Assembly: GCA_964516645.1 (NCBI GenBank)
Contig: CAZEXE010000008.1
Coordinates: forward strand, 1-45,517
Direction: 5' to 3'
Origin: an uncultured Candidatus Poseidoniales archaeon
GTDB taxonomy: Archaea > Thermoplasmatota > Poseidoniia > Poseidoniales > Poseidoniaceae
DNA: 45,517 nucleotides
A model generated the notes under the pieces. That model saw nothing but the letters and a program-made list of their open reading frames with translations, ran no database searches and was not told where the DNA came from. Position 1 is the first letter of the stretch; the number at the start of each line of letters is the position of its first letter. This document shows, one piece after another, positions 8,401 through 11,470 of this stretch. The translations under genes were made by a program, and so were the position numbers.

Positions 8401-11400
8401 AACAGGTAACGAAGTTGCCGACTTAGGACATACAAATATCAGAGATTCATACATTGGTAGTGGTTTCGCTGATATGAATCATGGTTCAGAATCAATGATG
8501 GTTGGAACAAACTGTGAAGGTGCAAATACAGAATGTAGAATGATTTTGGCACTGGACAATAGCCAAGTGCCACTACCATTAGGTGCAATGATTCATTCTG
8601 CTTCACTCAATCTACAAGTTGAATCTTCGCCAGCAGGAACGATGACTTTGAGCGTACATAGATTGCTGACCAACGCATGGTCGCAATCAGGTTCAACATG
8701 GAATAGTTCCGAAGCGGGAATTGCTTGGAGCGCAGGTGGTATGACGGCAGGTGTTGAATATGATTCGACACCAATCTCAAGTGTTACAATTAATTCTGGA
8801 ACTACCGAAGTTTGGTTGGACATAGGGCATGATTACATGATTATTGATGAAGACCATGCTTGGATTGTAATCGCAACTACACCAGCTGGTTCGCCTTCAT
8901 GGGTTGAATTCTACTCTAGTGAAAACTCATTGGAAGAGAGACCTAAGATACTAATCAACTACACTGATGTTCATTTCATATCTATCTCGCCATCTGGTCA
9001 AACTACTGATGCAGACTCCACAGTTCAGTTCTCACACATACTTGAAGATGAATTAGGAGGAATGGTTGCTGAAGATGTTGTTTGGTCGGTTAGCGACGGT
9101 TCCATCAATTCAACTGGGGTATTCACTCCACAATCAGTAGGAACACATGATGTGACTGCATGTTTCGGTGTAATTTGTGCCACAGAATCAATTACGGTTA
9201 CACCGGGGCAACCGGTAACGCTTGTTGTCGAAGATATTGAAGAAACGATAACGGCTGATGAGACATTCACAATCGTTGCTTCGATAAAAGACCAACATGG
9301 AAATACAGTTCCAGGATTGACTATCACTTACACTCCAACTAATGGAACGATGAGTGGAACTACATTCTATCCTCACGATGCTGGAATCCAGACAGTTGCT
9401 GTATTTTGGAATGGACAGACTACTGATGTCACTATAACTGTATTAGGTGGAGTTCCAACACACTACGAAACATCTGGTTGTGAACAAGTAGTTCATGCTG
9501 GAGAAACGTGTGAATTGAACTGGACATTACACGATCAATATGGAAACTTGTTGGGCCTAGAAGTAGGTGGTGGAATTACTTGGACTGTTGGTGGAGGAGT
9601 ATTCACTGAAGCCAATGGCACATACTTCGCAATGACTGTTGGAAACTATGTTTTAAACATGACTTCCACCGGTGGAATATACCACGAAATACCTATTCAG
9701 GTAACTCACGGAGAGATGACAAGTCTCGAGATTAATGCATCCTCTACATTCGTTACTGCTGATGACGTGGTTTGGCTCAATACAACCAGAATCGACGTCA
9801 TGGGTAACCGTTTATCAGTGGTTATACCTCAAGAAAATTGGACAATCAGTGACGGTATGATAACCGCAGGGCAACCTGCCGAATGGCATGCCCAAAATCG
9901 AGGCTCCAAGACTCTAACTGCTAGTTATGCGGGCATGAGTAGCAGTGTAGTCGTTCAAGTCAGTGAAGGAGAAATCACTGGGTTGATTCTAGTTATCGAT
10001 TCGGTAGACTCGACTGGTTCACTGCAAGAAATTACTGCAGACGATGAAATTACAATCAAGGTCAAAGCACATGACGCTGATGGGAACAGATGGACTGAAA
10101 ATGTCGCTTGGACCATTGAGCATGCTCAGTATACAGACCAAAGTGTTCTGCAAGAAATGACATATGGCTCAACCACAATATTCGCTCCTGTCTGGGCCTC
10201 TGATTCAGTATACACATTACGTGCAACGTTTACAGATGCAAATATCACTCTTGATGCAATACTGAATATTTCGGTAGCACATGGAGACTTGATAAACATT
10301 ATACTTTACCAGCCTGTAGAGTTGAATCAAAATATAGATGCTGACGGAGAAGTGCCATTCTTGCCAATGTTGTTCGACGGAGATAACAATACCATTGATT
10401 CTTCAATTATTTCTTACACTCTGGAAAACCTTGACACTGGAGAGACCTCCAACATTACATCTACAATCATAGATAATGCAGGTGTTTGGGAAGCAACCAC
10501 TGTTGGAGAATGGGCAATTACCGCATGGGCAATCTCCAGCACCGGATACAATATTTCTGAAACTGTAGCAATCACTGTTGAACACGGTGATGCTGTTTCT
10601 GTTGACCTCGAAGTAATCGCAGATACTGCCAAAGCCGGTGATGTATACACTCTAACAATCACAGGCACAGATGCTGATGGAAATACGTTCCTTGAGAGTG
10701 TTTTGTGGACACAAGACAACAAAGCCGTACCTGCCTCGACCATTGAGGGTTCAGATGGAGTTTACAATTGGAGTGCTACAACCGCTGGACAACACACATT
10801 CAAGTTCCGCTCTCCAAGTGGTGCAGAAGATGTATGGACAGTAACTGTTTCAGCTCATCAAACCGTTGATCGTATCGAATTGACAATCATTGAGGACTCA
10901 GTATTACAGTTGGAGTCATTCGACATAGAAGTTAGAACGTTTGATGCATGGGAAAATGAGATTCCTGTTCCTCCAGAAACTCAGGTGAAGTTGACTGGTA
11001 GAATGACTGCCAAATTAGTAGAGAATGGTAAGTGGACTATCACTACATTAGATGCTGAAGAACAAACCGTGACTATCGCTGTTCACAATAAGGAAGTGTC
11101 TGATTCCATTGTTGTTGAAGGGACGTTCATGGGATTCTTTGAGGCTGGTGGGACACTTTACTACGCTGGTGGAATTCTAGCAATTCTTATTGTGATTGTT
11201 CTACTTGTTGTCATTGTCATGGTACTTCGTTCAGGAGGCTCTGATTATGACGATGATGATGATGAAGATGATGATGATTACGTGTATGAAGAAGAGGAAC
11301 AACCTGCTAGCACAGGACCAACTGGGCCTCCGGTTGTTGAACGTGGACGTGAAGATTGGATGGCTGATTATCGAGTCGATGAAGACGATGTCGAATGGGC

Positions 11401-11470: not shown

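What the first reader, a model, noticed from the sequence alone, without database searches (positions are those of the whole stretch)
11233..11470. Shared cytoplasmic tail code: acidic run plus terminal G-W-Y-x-D..G..W..EW motif in two surface proteins
The tail of the 3016-aa protein reads SDYDDDDDEDDDDYVYEEEE ... EDENGSWWYRDPGTTEWNEWAD-stop. The tail of the 859-aa protein (14019..14093) reads ...EVDYWEDDDFEEFEDE ... GKTGWYIDSNGELTSWLVSETGEWTRMS-stop.

Both motifs lie on the cytoplasmic side of the single TM, at the extreme C-terminus. From memory, the motif resembles the short GWYPDP...RYWDG..WT module (DUF2510-type) of bacterial membrane proteins.

A conserved intracellular Trp-rich peptide on otherwise extracellular giants suggests docking to an unknown cytoplasmic partner. 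That partner could serve sorting, anchoring to a cytoskeletal or membrane scaffold, or quality control. No PGF-CTERM/archaeosortase-type signal is present.
Basis: partly seen in the sequence, partly recalled or inferred. Interest (0 to 1): 0.7.

Follow-up and report, generated by a model that had tools for sequence, protein, structure and literature searches.

The report
Shared tryptophan-rich tail domain, marine archaea
Two neighbouring giant surface proteins of Marine Group II archaea end inside the cell in small tryptophan-rich folded tails, and the larger protein's tail is an undescribed 40-residue module also found on several unrelated surface proteins and on soluble proteins, which suggests an unknown link between the cell surface and the cell interior.

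Summary
Both proteins have a signal peptide, a large ectodomain, one C-terminal transmembrane (TM) helix, an acidic run and a Trp-rich extreme C-terminus. The organism is a Poseidoniales (Marine Group II) archaeon. The gene pair and both tails are conserved across the 45 species-level genomes recovered.

Two corrections apply:
- The 859-aa protein is a collinear paralogue of the last ~830 residues of the giant, so the two tails are not independent observations.
- Profile comparisons do not significantly link the two tails to each other. Neither tail matches DUF2510, GYF_2 or WW.

The main new result concerns the giant's 40-aa tail. Its consensus is VDEDGTEW-x-ED-xx-G-x-WWYR-x-PG-xx-DW-x-EW. 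AlphaFold2 predicts a four-stranded beta-meander with pLDDT 95. It is a mobile module with 185 clusters at E<=1e-3, almost always at the very C-terminus. In hits long enough to judge, it usually follows a TM helix and an acidic linker. It occurs on these classes:
- CBM96/Ig giants
- integrin-like FG-GAP/VCBS proteins
- thrombospondin-repeat proteins
- a soluble 246-290-aa family
- a TPR protein

No Pfam, NCBIfam or PDB family matches it.

The best reading is an intracellular protein-protein interaction (docking or oligomerisation) module on a flexible acidic tether. The partner is unknown.

The parts
2420..11470 (+). Giant 3016-aa type-I surface glycoprotein ('F1'). It has a signal peptide, seven CBM96/DNRLRE modules, an Ig-like stalk, a TM helix and a cytoplasmic tail.
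   Evidence: ORF and translation. Pfam CBM96 at 1.4e-67 with 7 stretches, plus weak sub-cutoff Big_1 and fn3 hits. Sequon enrichment of 67 against 42 expected. Orthologues in Poseidoniales genomes.
8978..11356 (+). Stalk, TM helix and acidic-run segment of the giant (aa ~2187-2979). It is paralogous and collinear with residues 29-801 of the 859-aa protein.
   Evidence: BLASTP E 5e-54, 26% identity over 824 columns, running through the TM helix into the acidic linker.
11168..11227 (+). Single C-terminal TM helix of the giant (GGILAILIVIVLLVVIVMVL).
   Evidence: Read from the sequence. Hydropathy scan.
11243..11299 (+). Poly-acidic run DYDDDDDEDDDDYVYEEEE, encoded largely by (GAT)n-type codon repeats.
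   Evidence: Its length and composition vary between close relatives (P0063, P0064).
11300..11347 (+). Pro/Gly-rich spacer (QPASTGPTGPPVVERG). In relatives it expands to (PSGPAPGPTGP)n.
11348..11467 (+). Terminal 40-aa Trp-rich domain REDWMADYRVDEDDVEWAEDENGSWWYRDPGTTEWNEWAD ('F1-type tail domain').
   Evidence: AF2 pLDDT 95 with strands at 5-10, 16-20, 25-28 and 36-37. 185 clusters at E<=1e-3, almost always at the C-terminus. Modular occurrence on other proteins.
11517..14096 (+). 859-aa type-I surface protein ('F2'), a paralogue of the giant's stalk. It starts 46 nt after the giant's stop codon, on the same strand.
   Evidence: Pfam Big_1 and Big_2. Always adjacent to the giant in every locus long enough to show it.
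13698..13760 (+). TM helix of the 859-aa protein (TALTMVSIIIFLFIAIMLVLI), followed by RRLK.
13785..13850 (+). Acidic run EVDYWEDDDFEEFEDEKEHLDD of the 859-aa protein.
   Evidence: This is the least conserved part of the tail, with column identity 0.28-0.42.
13932..14093 (+). Conserved 54-aa terminal region of the 859-aa protein. It comprises a helix (EDLRARLAEEAKR), then GVMQAAPGTEQGK, then a three-stranded meander TGWYIDSNGELTSWLVSETGEWTRMS.
   Evidence: Alignment A2 has 23 invariant columns. AF2 pLDDT 79 with helix 2-15 and strands 29-33, 39-44 and 50-53. Conserved in 45 genomes.

Best explanation
The window comes from a Poseidoniales (Marine Group II) archaeon.

The two proteins:
- They are adjacent, same-strand paralogues.
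- Both are type-I membrane glycoproteins whose large ectodomains face outward.
- Each C-terminus follows one TM helix and a flexible acidic (and often Pro/Gly-rich) tether, and lies in the cytoplasm.
- Each tail ends in a small folded, aromatic-rich beta-meander.

The giant's tail:
- It belongs to a previously uncurated ~40-residue domain family.
- The consensus is [YI]-x-V-D-E-D-G-T-E-W-x-E-D-x-x-G-x-W-W-Y-R-x-P-G-x-x-D-W-x-E-[WYF]-x-[DE]-COOH.
- It behaves as a mobile module. Within the same order it sits at the extreme C-terminus of several unrelated surface-protein classes: CBM96/Ig giants, integrin-like FG-GAP/VCBS proteins and thrombospondin-repeat proteins.
- It also sits on soluble cytoplasmic proteins.

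The 859-aa protein's tail is most parsimoniously a strongly diverged copy of the same ancestral tail. It is more tightly constrained and is restricted to that one protein.

Most likely function (inferred, not shown): the domain is an intracellular protein-protein interaction module. Its exposed Trp/Tyr surface would bind a common cytoplasmic partner, or other copies of itself, including the copies on the soluble domain-bearing proteins. This would couple or cluster a defined set of surface adhesin-like proteins from the inside. The acidic run would act as a flexible tether that is repelled from the membrane.
For: Shown:
- Architecture and coordinates.
- Taxonomy and conservation in 45 species-level genomes of both MGIIa and MGIIb, with the pair always adjacent where the locus is long enough.
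- Paralogy of the stalk, TM helix and acidic run.
- Purifying selection on the terminal 40 residues relative to the linker.
- A confident AF2 fold for the giant's tail (pLDDT 95, four strands) and a moderate one for the other tail (pLDDT 79).
- 185 clusters at E<=1e-3 in 1.84 billion representatives, with the match ending at or within a few residues of the C-terminus in nearly all.
- 48 hits have a TM helix 35-151 residues upstream. Only six of the longer hits lack one nearby: four have no TM helix at all (P0092, P0131, P0174, P0233) and two have a distant one (P0153, P0154).
- Unrelated ectodomains: FG-GAP/VCBS, TSP_3, CBM96 and TPR.
- Similarity to the giant is limited to the last 30-53 residues at 47-59% identity.
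- NCBI names place the FG-GAP/VCBS and soluble proteins in Poseidoniales.
- A soluble domain-bearing protein and the F1/F2 locus lie in the same MAG, GCA_038110525.1.

Inferred: a 40-residue sheet with 5-6 conserved aromatic residues cannot bury them alone, so it should present a binding surface.
Against: - No partner was found. Gene neighbourhoods of the giant, of an FG-GAP member and of the soluble member show only housekeeping genes.
- Homology between the two tail types is not demonstrated. HMM cross-scores are about 0 bits, and hhalign gives probability of 11% or less.
- AF2 models of 40-54-residue peptides from shallow alignments may be over-confident.
- Foldseek E-values are about 1.
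- Topology is inferred from sequence rules, not from a dedicated predictor or an experiment.
- The organisms are uncultured, so nothing is known of expression or localisation.
Confidence: 0.6

Rival explanations
1. Single-blade oligomeric beta-propeller. Each tail is one four-stranded propeller blade. Tails from several chains (giant, 859-aa protein, FG-GAP proteins, soluble family) assemble into an intermolecular propeller under the membrane. This would fix the surface proteins into defined oligomers or a lattice.
For: - Foldseek hits of the pLDDT-95 model are almost all single blades: PknD, tectonin 2, fishelectin, YCF48 and sortilin.
- They include designed or natural fragments that build propellers by oligomerisation: Pizza2, Cake2 and Ph1500.
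- TM-score (query-normalised) is 0.63-0.74, rmsd 1.2-1.9 A and probability up to 0.97.
- Hits for the other tail include WD40 blades.
- The domain is of blade size (40 aa), occurs once per chain, and one protein (P0095) has exactly six dispersed copies.
Against: - Foldseek E-values are about 1, and any tight four-stranded meander resembles a blade.
- No relative with contiguous tandem blades was found among 150 hits.
- No multimer prediction could be run.
Confidence: 0.15
2. WW-like proline-peptide-binding domain. The meander binds Pro-rich segments, such as the (PSGPAPGPTGP)n spacers of the same tails or the PPLPPGGLP motif at the end of the 1130-aa surface protein. This would cross-link surface proteins in the cytoplasm.
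For: - The pattern W-x(5-7)-G-x-W-[WY]-Y-x(7-9)-W is reminiscent of WW domains (from my own knowledge of the WW signature).
- Pro-rich spacers lie next to the domain.
- A conserved PPLP-containing tail module occurs on another surface protein of the same window.
Against: - No Pfam WW hit at E<=10 in 72 tail sequences.
- No WW structure appears in the Foldseek top 50.
- The Trp spacing is shorter than in WW domains, and the model has four strands rather than three.
Confidence: 0.12
3. Paralogy only. The resemblance of the two tails is a leftover of one gene duplication and carries no common 'code'. The tails have unrelated or trivial roles, for example a charged stopper that fixes topology.
For: - Collinear paralogy through the TM helix and acidic run.
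- The profiles do not recognise each other.
- The 859-aa-type tail occurs only on orthologues of that protein.
Against: - The giant's tail domain recurs on unrelated proteins, soluble ones included.
- The terminal domains are conserved far above their linkers.
Confidence: 0.08
4. The tails are diverged members of DUF2510/GYF_2-type bacterial cytoplasmic modules.
For: Visual similarity of GWY-x-D-xx-G...W...W-T to the remembered DUF2510 pattern. One domain-bearing TPR protein (P0092) starts with DGKWLWTGSEWIPAPP.
Against: No DUF2510 or GYF_2 hit at E<=10 for any of 72 tail sequences, or at E<=0.001 in the full-length proteins scanned.
Confidence: 0.05
5. The acidic run plus Trp-rich end acts as a cation-binding or membrane-interface element, or as a C-terminal sorting or degradation signal, rather than as a protein-docking domain.
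For: The tails carry extreme net negative charge: 31 D+E of 80 residues and 30 of 111. Trp has a known preference for membrane interfaces (general knowledge).
Against: - The domain is itself strongly acidic and sits 35-150 residues from the membrane, behind a linker of variable length and sequence.
- It is predicted to fold.
- It occurs on soluble proteins.
- The order TM helix then domain is the reverse of sortase or archaeosortase signals.
Confidence: 0.05

Closest known systems
WW domain (Pfam PF00397)
   Same: A small (~35-40 aa) antiparallel beta-meander with conserved, spaced Trp residues and an aromatic pair in the middle strand. It is a modular intracellular interaction domain, often found next to Pro-rich sequence.
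   Different: No HMM match. Four predicted strands rather than three. Trp-Trp spacing of 18 rather than 20-22, and no terminal W-x-x-P. No WW structure among the top 50 Foldseek hits.
DUF2510 (PF10708) and GYF_2 (PF14237)
   Same: Short Trp/Gly-rich cytoplasmic modules attached to membrane proteins. The superficial pattern GWY-x-D-xx-G...W is shared.
   Different: No hit at E<=10 in 72 tail sequences. Here the module is at the extreme C-terminus after a type-I TM helix, in archaea.
Single blades of beta-propellers that assemble by oligomerisation (designed Pizza2/Cake2, Pyrococcus Ph1500; blades of PknD, tectonin, YCF48)
   Same: A four-stranded ~40-aa meander. These are the best structural matches, with TMq 0.63-0.74 and rmsd 1.2-1.9 A. 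There is one copy per chain, so closure would need several chains. The VDEDGTEW hairpin resembles an Asp-box (S-x-D-x-G-x-T-W; from my own knowledge, not tested).
   Different: No sequence relationship. Foldseek E-values are about 1. No tandem-blade relatives were found. Oligomerisation is untested.
Cytoplasmic tails of apicomplexan TRAP/MIC2 adhesins and W-acidic motifs of eukaryotic cargo (functional analogues; from my own knowledge)
   Same: Type-I adhesins whose short cytoplasmic tails combine an acidic run with conserved Trp close to the C-terminus, and which dock to intracellular machinery.
   Different: Those are short linear motifs in eukaryotes. Here there is a folded 40-aa domain in archaea. 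No homology exists and no partner is known.
Integrin alpha-like FG-GAP proteins with cytoplasmic tails
   Same: Several carriers of the domain are FG-GAP/VCBS propeller proteins with one C-terminal TM helix and a cytoplasmic tail.
   Different: Integrin tails are short motifs such as GFFKR and NPxY that bind talin or kindlin. None of this is present or tested here.
PGF-CTERM/archaeosortase and other C-terminal sorting signals
   Same: A C-terminal feature shared by many surface proteins of one archaeal lineage.
   Different: The order is reversed: TM helix first, then a 75-110-aa tail. There is no PGF motif. The domain also occurs on soluble proteins.

Membership tests
DUF2510 (PF10708) | Match to the Pfam profile at or near the gathering score. 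| tested here: not met
   hmmscan at E<=10: no hit for the window tails, 16+16 family members or 40 diverse members.
GYF_2 (PF14237) | Match to the Pfam profile. | tested here: not met
   Same scans, no hit.
WW domain (PF00397) | Match to the Pfam profile: two Trp 20-22 residues apart, with a terminal W-x-x-P. | tested here: not met
   No Pfam hit. The invariant Trp pair is 18 residues apart and is followed by x-E-[WYF].
WW domain (PF00397) | Three-stranded twisted sheet resembling solved WW structures. | tested here: not met
   The AF2 model has four strands. No WW entry appears in the Foldseek PDB top 50.
Beta-propeller blade (structural class) | A four-stranded antiparallel meander of ~40 residues that superposes on blades. 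| tested here: inconclusive
   Top Foldseek hits are blades with TMq 0.63-0.74 and probability up to 0.97, but E is about 1.
Beta-propeller blade (structural class) | Blades close into a ring, by tandem repeats or by oligomerisation. | not testable with these tools
   The domain is single-copy in nearly all 150 hits and no contiguous tandem arrays were seen. No multimer prediction was available.
Choline-binding / cell-wall-binding repeat (PF01473) | Match to the profile; tandem ~20-aa hairpin repeats; extracellular location. | tested here: not met
   1 of 40 members at E 0.01, below the cutoff. Bacterial repeat proteins match only profile positions 21-36. The location here is cytoplasmic and single-copy.
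PGF-CTERM / archaeosortase substrate | PGF motif, then a TM helix, then a short basic end at the extreme C-terminus. | tested here: not met
   Read from the sequence: the TM helix is followed by 80- and 111-aa acidic tails and there is no PGF.
New 'F1-type' Trp-rich C-terminal domain (defined here) | ~40 aa at the extreme C-terminus matching the profile VDEDGTEW..ED..G.WWYR.PG..DW.EW. | tested here: met
   The giant's tail scores 68 bits against A1. There are 185 clusters at E<=1e-3.
New 'F1-type' Trp-rich C-terminal domain (defined here) | The 859-aa protein's tail belongs to the same family. | tested here: inconclusive
   HMM cross-score is about 0 bits. hhalign gives P 0.003-0.02 and probability 2-11%. 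However, the upstream ~770 residues are collinear paralogues and both tails are beta-meanders ending at the C-terminus.

The most novel reading that the evidence does not exclude
Poseidoniales may possess a modular cytoplasmic 'tail-domain' system. A 40-residue Trp-rich single-blade or WW-like domain is shared by at least four classes of surface proteins and by soluble adaptor-like proteins. It would assemble homotypically (for example into an intermolecular beta-propeller) or bind Pro-rich tails of other surface proteins. Extracellular adhesin- or integrin-like proteins would thereby be coupled physically to a submembrane scaffold. This would be an archaeal counterpart of adhesion-receptor/adaptor coupling, in the most abundant planktonic archaea.
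Probability: 0.2. Interest if true: 0.85.

Novelty: new variant of a known kind. Interest (0 to 1): 0.62.

Why it matters
Marine Group II archaea are the dominant archaea of the surface ocean. They remain uncultured, and their cell envelope is essentially unknown. Their large adhesin-like proteins are thought to mediate attachment to particles and algae (PMC6461757).

A conserved, folded, modular cytoplasmic domain is shared by the order's universal giant surface protein, by integrin-like FG-GAP proteins, by thrombospondin-repeat proteins and by soluble proteins. This implies that these surface proteins are organised or sensed from inside the cell, something not described for archaea.

It also gives three concrete things to work with:
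- a 40-residue bait for partner discovery
- a sequence signature for cataloguing the surface proteome of these organisms
- a candidate new small domain family for the databases

Tried and rejected
- Pfam, NCBIfam and PDB-sequence searches of the tails found no family.
- Profile-profile and HMM cross-comparison of the two tail families gave no significant link.
- Foldseek PDB search of the 859-aa tail model found nothing below E 0.3.
- HMM search of all six-frame ORFs in about 810 kb of Poseidoniales loci for extra copies of either tail found only the orthologues themselves. These loci are mostly the same syntenic region.
- Gene-neighbourhood inspection for a partner around the giant, an FG-GAP member and the soluble member showed housekeeping genes only.
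- The window's TPR_12 protein (23211-24008) as a relative of the domain-bearing TPR protein P0092 showed only generic TPR similarity, E 0.006. I dropped this lead.
- Literature: no paper held mentions DUF2510. Poseidoniales papers mention thrombospondin, flotillin and archaella for adhesion but nothing on cytoplasmic tails. The first broad search was uninformative.
- Multi-stretch hits of the representative search (bacterial NGxWYY-type wall-binding repeats and Ig repeats: P0130, P0159, P0171, P0197, P0213, P0217, P0227, P0229) match only a hairpin-sized part of the profile. I set them aside as non-members.
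Full report
**1. What is at the coordinates**

The giant ORF 2420-11470 (+, 3016 aa) ends as follows:
- a single hydrophobic helix, GGILAILIVIVLLVVIVMVL (11168-11227)
- RSGGS
- a poly-acidic run, DYDDDDDEDDDDYVYEEEE (11243-11299)
- a Pro-rich spacer
- REDWMADYRVDEDDVEWAEDENGSWWYRDPGTTEWNEWAD-stop (11348-11470)

The next ORF starts 46 nt downstream on the same strand (11517-14096, 859 aa). 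It ends with a TM helix (13698-13760), RRLKGEQN, EVDYWEDDDFEEFEDE..., and finally ...KEDLRARLAEEAKRTGVMQAAPGTEQGKTGWYIDSNGELTSWLVSETGEWTRMS-stop.

Six Trp in the last 40 residues has P about 2e-4 at the Trp frequency of this window's proteins.

**2. Topology**

- Both proteins begin with signal-peptide-like segments.
- N-x-S/T sequons are over-represented in the whole proteins: 67 against 42 expected for the giant and 10 against 5 for the 859-aa protein. The tails hold one and none.
- One or two basic residues follow each TM helix.
- The same terminal domain occurs on proteins with no TM helix or signal peptide.

Together these place the tails in the cytoplasm. This is an inference from sequence rules, because no dedicated topology predictor was available.

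**3. Organism and conservation**

The window carries archaeal markers read from the translations (TFB-, Lon- and AspRS-like ORFs). A scan of one genome per GTDB species with the 859-aa tail profile returned 45 loci. All are Poseidoniales, from both Poseidoniaceae (MGIIa) and Thalassarchaeaceae (MGIIb).

In every locus long enough to show it, the giant and the ~860-aa gene are adjacent on the same strand. Both keep the TM helix, acidic run and Trp-rich end.

Along the 859-aa protein, the last 40 residues are the best-conserved stretch of the C-terminal 420 residues aligned. Column identity is 0.93 and 0.70 for the last two 20-residue blocks, against 0.28-0.42 in the acidic linker and about 0.6-0.75 in the ectodomain. 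In the giant the terminal domain (0.73 and 0.65) is as conserved as the ectodomain and more conserved than its spacer (0.55).

**4. The two proteins are paralogues**

BLASTP aligns residues 29-801 of the 859-aa protein collinearly with residues ~2187-2979 of the giant. The E-value is 5e-54, with 26% identity over 824 columns. The alignment runs through the Ig-like stalk and the TM helix into the acidic run.

The 'two surface proteins' are therefore one duplication, not two independent occurrences. That weakens the original argument for a shared code.

**5. Are the two tails the same motif?**

- HMMs built from each family score the other at about 0 bits.
- hhalign gives probabilities of 2-11%, with P 0.003-0.02 for a single comparison.
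- The register hhalign prefers is YRVDEDG--TEWAEDENGSW against GWYIDSNGELTSWLVSETGEW.

Both tails are built of repeated strand-turn units of the form aromatic-x-x-[DS]-x-[DN]-G, so several registers look plausible by eye.

Three facts favour common descent: the upstream paralogy, the location of both at the extreme C-terminus, and the predicted beta-meanders. Divergent homology is therefore the most parsimonious reading, but it is not demonstrated.

**6. Predicted structure**

*The giant's tail.* With a 16-sequence alignment, AF2 folds it at pLDDT 95 into four antiparallel strands: 5-10, 16-20, 25-28 and 36-37.

*The 859-aa tail.* AF2 gives pLDDT 79, with a helix followed by a three-stranded meander.

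*Foldseek against the PDB.*
- Nothing significant was found for the 859-aa tail model.
- For the giant's tail the top hits are almost exclusively single blades of beta-propellers: PknD, tectonin 2, fishelectin, YCF48, sortilin and Kti13.
- They include the Pizza2/Cake2 designs and Ph1500, which form propellers by oligomerisation.
- TM-scores are 0.63-0.74 and rmsd 1.2-1.9 A, but E-values are about 1 because the query is so short.
- No WW domain appears in the top 50.

**7. Known families**

Pfam hmmscan at E<=10 found no DUF2510, GYF_2 or WW hit. This covers the window tails, 16+16 orthologues and 40 diverse members.

NCBIfam and PDB sequence searches were also negative. The remembered DUF2510 resemblance is not supported.

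**8. The key new result: the giant's tail is a mobile module**

A profile of the 40-residue tail was searched against 1.84 billion representative proteins. It found 185 clusters at E<=1e-3, almost all with the match at the extreme C-terminus.

Hits by TM context:

| Class | Count |
|---|---|
| TM helix 35-151 residues upstream of the domain | 48 |
| Longer hits with no TM helix at all | 4 |
| Longer hits with only a distant TM helix | 2 |
| Short fragments | 87 |

Carriers by architecture:

| Carrier class | Examples | Evidence |
|---|---|---|
| ~3000-aa CBM96/DNRLRE giants (orthologues of the window protein) | P0128, P0149, P0165, P0183 | |
| ~1190-1530-aa FG-GAP/VCBS integrin-like proteins with signal peptide and C-terminal TM helix | P0210, P0167, P0164, P0193, P0195, P0198, P0154, P0215, P0222 | |
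| Thrombospondin type-3 repeat proteins | P0199 (by Pfam); P0131 (by inspection) | |
| Soluble 246-290-aa family starting MARKKGGFGRFLG | P0206, P0233, P0174 | |
| TPR protein | P0092 | |
| Small TM proteins | P0129 | |
| 919-aa protein of unknown origin with six copies ~150 residues apart | P0095 | |

BLASTP shows that similarity between the giant and the FG-GAP, TSP3, soluble and TPR proteins is confined to the last 30-53 residues, at 47-59% identity.

NCBI records name the FG-GAP/VCBS and soluble proteins as Poseidoniales or Poseidoniaceae. One soluble member lies in the same MAG as an F1/F2 locus.

That test is passed for this tail type.

The 859-aa-type tail, by contrast, was found only on its own orthologues and on chimeric fragments.

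**9. Mechanism**

*Shown:* a conserved, confidently predicted, aromatic-rich 40-residue domain at the end of a flexible acidic or Pro-rich cytoplasmic tether, shared by unrelated surface proteins and by soluble proteins of one archaeal order.

*Inferred:* the domain is a protein-protein interaction module. A small sheet with five or six conserved Trp/Tyr cannot bury them on its own, and it occurs on both membrane and soluble proteins. That suggests either a common partner or homotypic association.

Two sharper versions are compatible with the data but untested:
- a single propeller blade that closes a ring with blades from other chains
- a WW-like binder of the neighbouring Pro-rich segments, or of the PPLPPGGLP tail module of the 1130-aa surface protein in the same window

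No partner emerged from gene neighbourhoods.

**10. Novelty and verdict**

The Poseidoniales papers held in the library discuss thrombospondin, flotillin and archaella in the context of adhesion. They say nothing on cytoplasmic tails.

The domain has no curated family. I rate it a new variant of a known kind, namely a small modular intracellular interaction domain on adhesion-type receptors. It is new for archaea.

- Right about location and recurrence; docking is plausible but unproven.
- Wrong about the independence of the two cases, the specific inter-tail alignment and the DUF2510 link.

Noticed in passing
window 32526-35918 (+), tail motif about 35838-35915: The 1130-aa surface protein ends, after its TM helix and a Pro/Ala-rich stretch, in a different, very strongly conserved cytoplasmic module: PPLPPGGLPAGW[TS]MEQWxYYG[QH]QYL. 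About 95 clusters carry it. One relative (P0351) has two tandem copies, and P0426 and P0428 carry it directly after a different TM helix. It contains a PPLP-type proline motif.
   Followed up: partly
window 32526-35918 (+): The same 1130-aa protein has only 1 N-x-S/T sequon against about 13 expected from its composition. The other three large surface proteins of the window are sequon-enriched.
   Followed up: no
window 28373-31642 (+), tail about 31445-31639: The 1089-aa surface protein has a fourth kind of cytoplasmic tail: TM helix, EEEEEE, then a CxxC...CxxC zinc ribbon (best Pfam hit Zn_ribbon_FGT1_2 at 2.4e-5, below the cutoff). Its ectodomain has a long (NNTGG)n low-complexity run.
   Followed up: partly
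window 14097-15752 (-): An amino-acid permease with a C-terminal EF-hand-like cytoplasmic extension (...DTNRSGVIDIDEFL...). It is the conserved convergent neighbour of the 859-aa gene, and the EF-hand-like end is present in many of the 45 loci.
   Followed up: no
window 20834-21949 (-): An asparaginase_II-like enzyme ends in a Trp-acidic extension, TWDEWDPDRDRWHYEVDV. It does not match the tail-domain HMMs.
   Followed up: partly
window 11243-11299: The poly-Asp run is encoded by (GAT)n-like repeats and differs in length and composition between near-identical relatives (P0063, P0064). This suggests slippage-prone, length-tolerant linker sequence.
   Followed up: no
P0095 (ENA contig, 6.5 kb): A 919-aa protein of unknown origin has six copies of the tail domain (DFQTYFEDDxGGYWHEDxxxGxWWYLxPxKDEWEKV), each about 150 residues apart. 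It is the only multi-copy carrier found, and it may not be archaeal.
   Followed up: no
L001 9998-10516 and L002 10001-10321: In long-read (pilon-polished) assemblies the giant and the 859-aa genes are split by frameshifts. Many database 'proteins' matching the tails are therefore fragments of 100-230 aa or chimeras with unrelated N-termini (P0048, P0049, P0058).
   Followed up: partly
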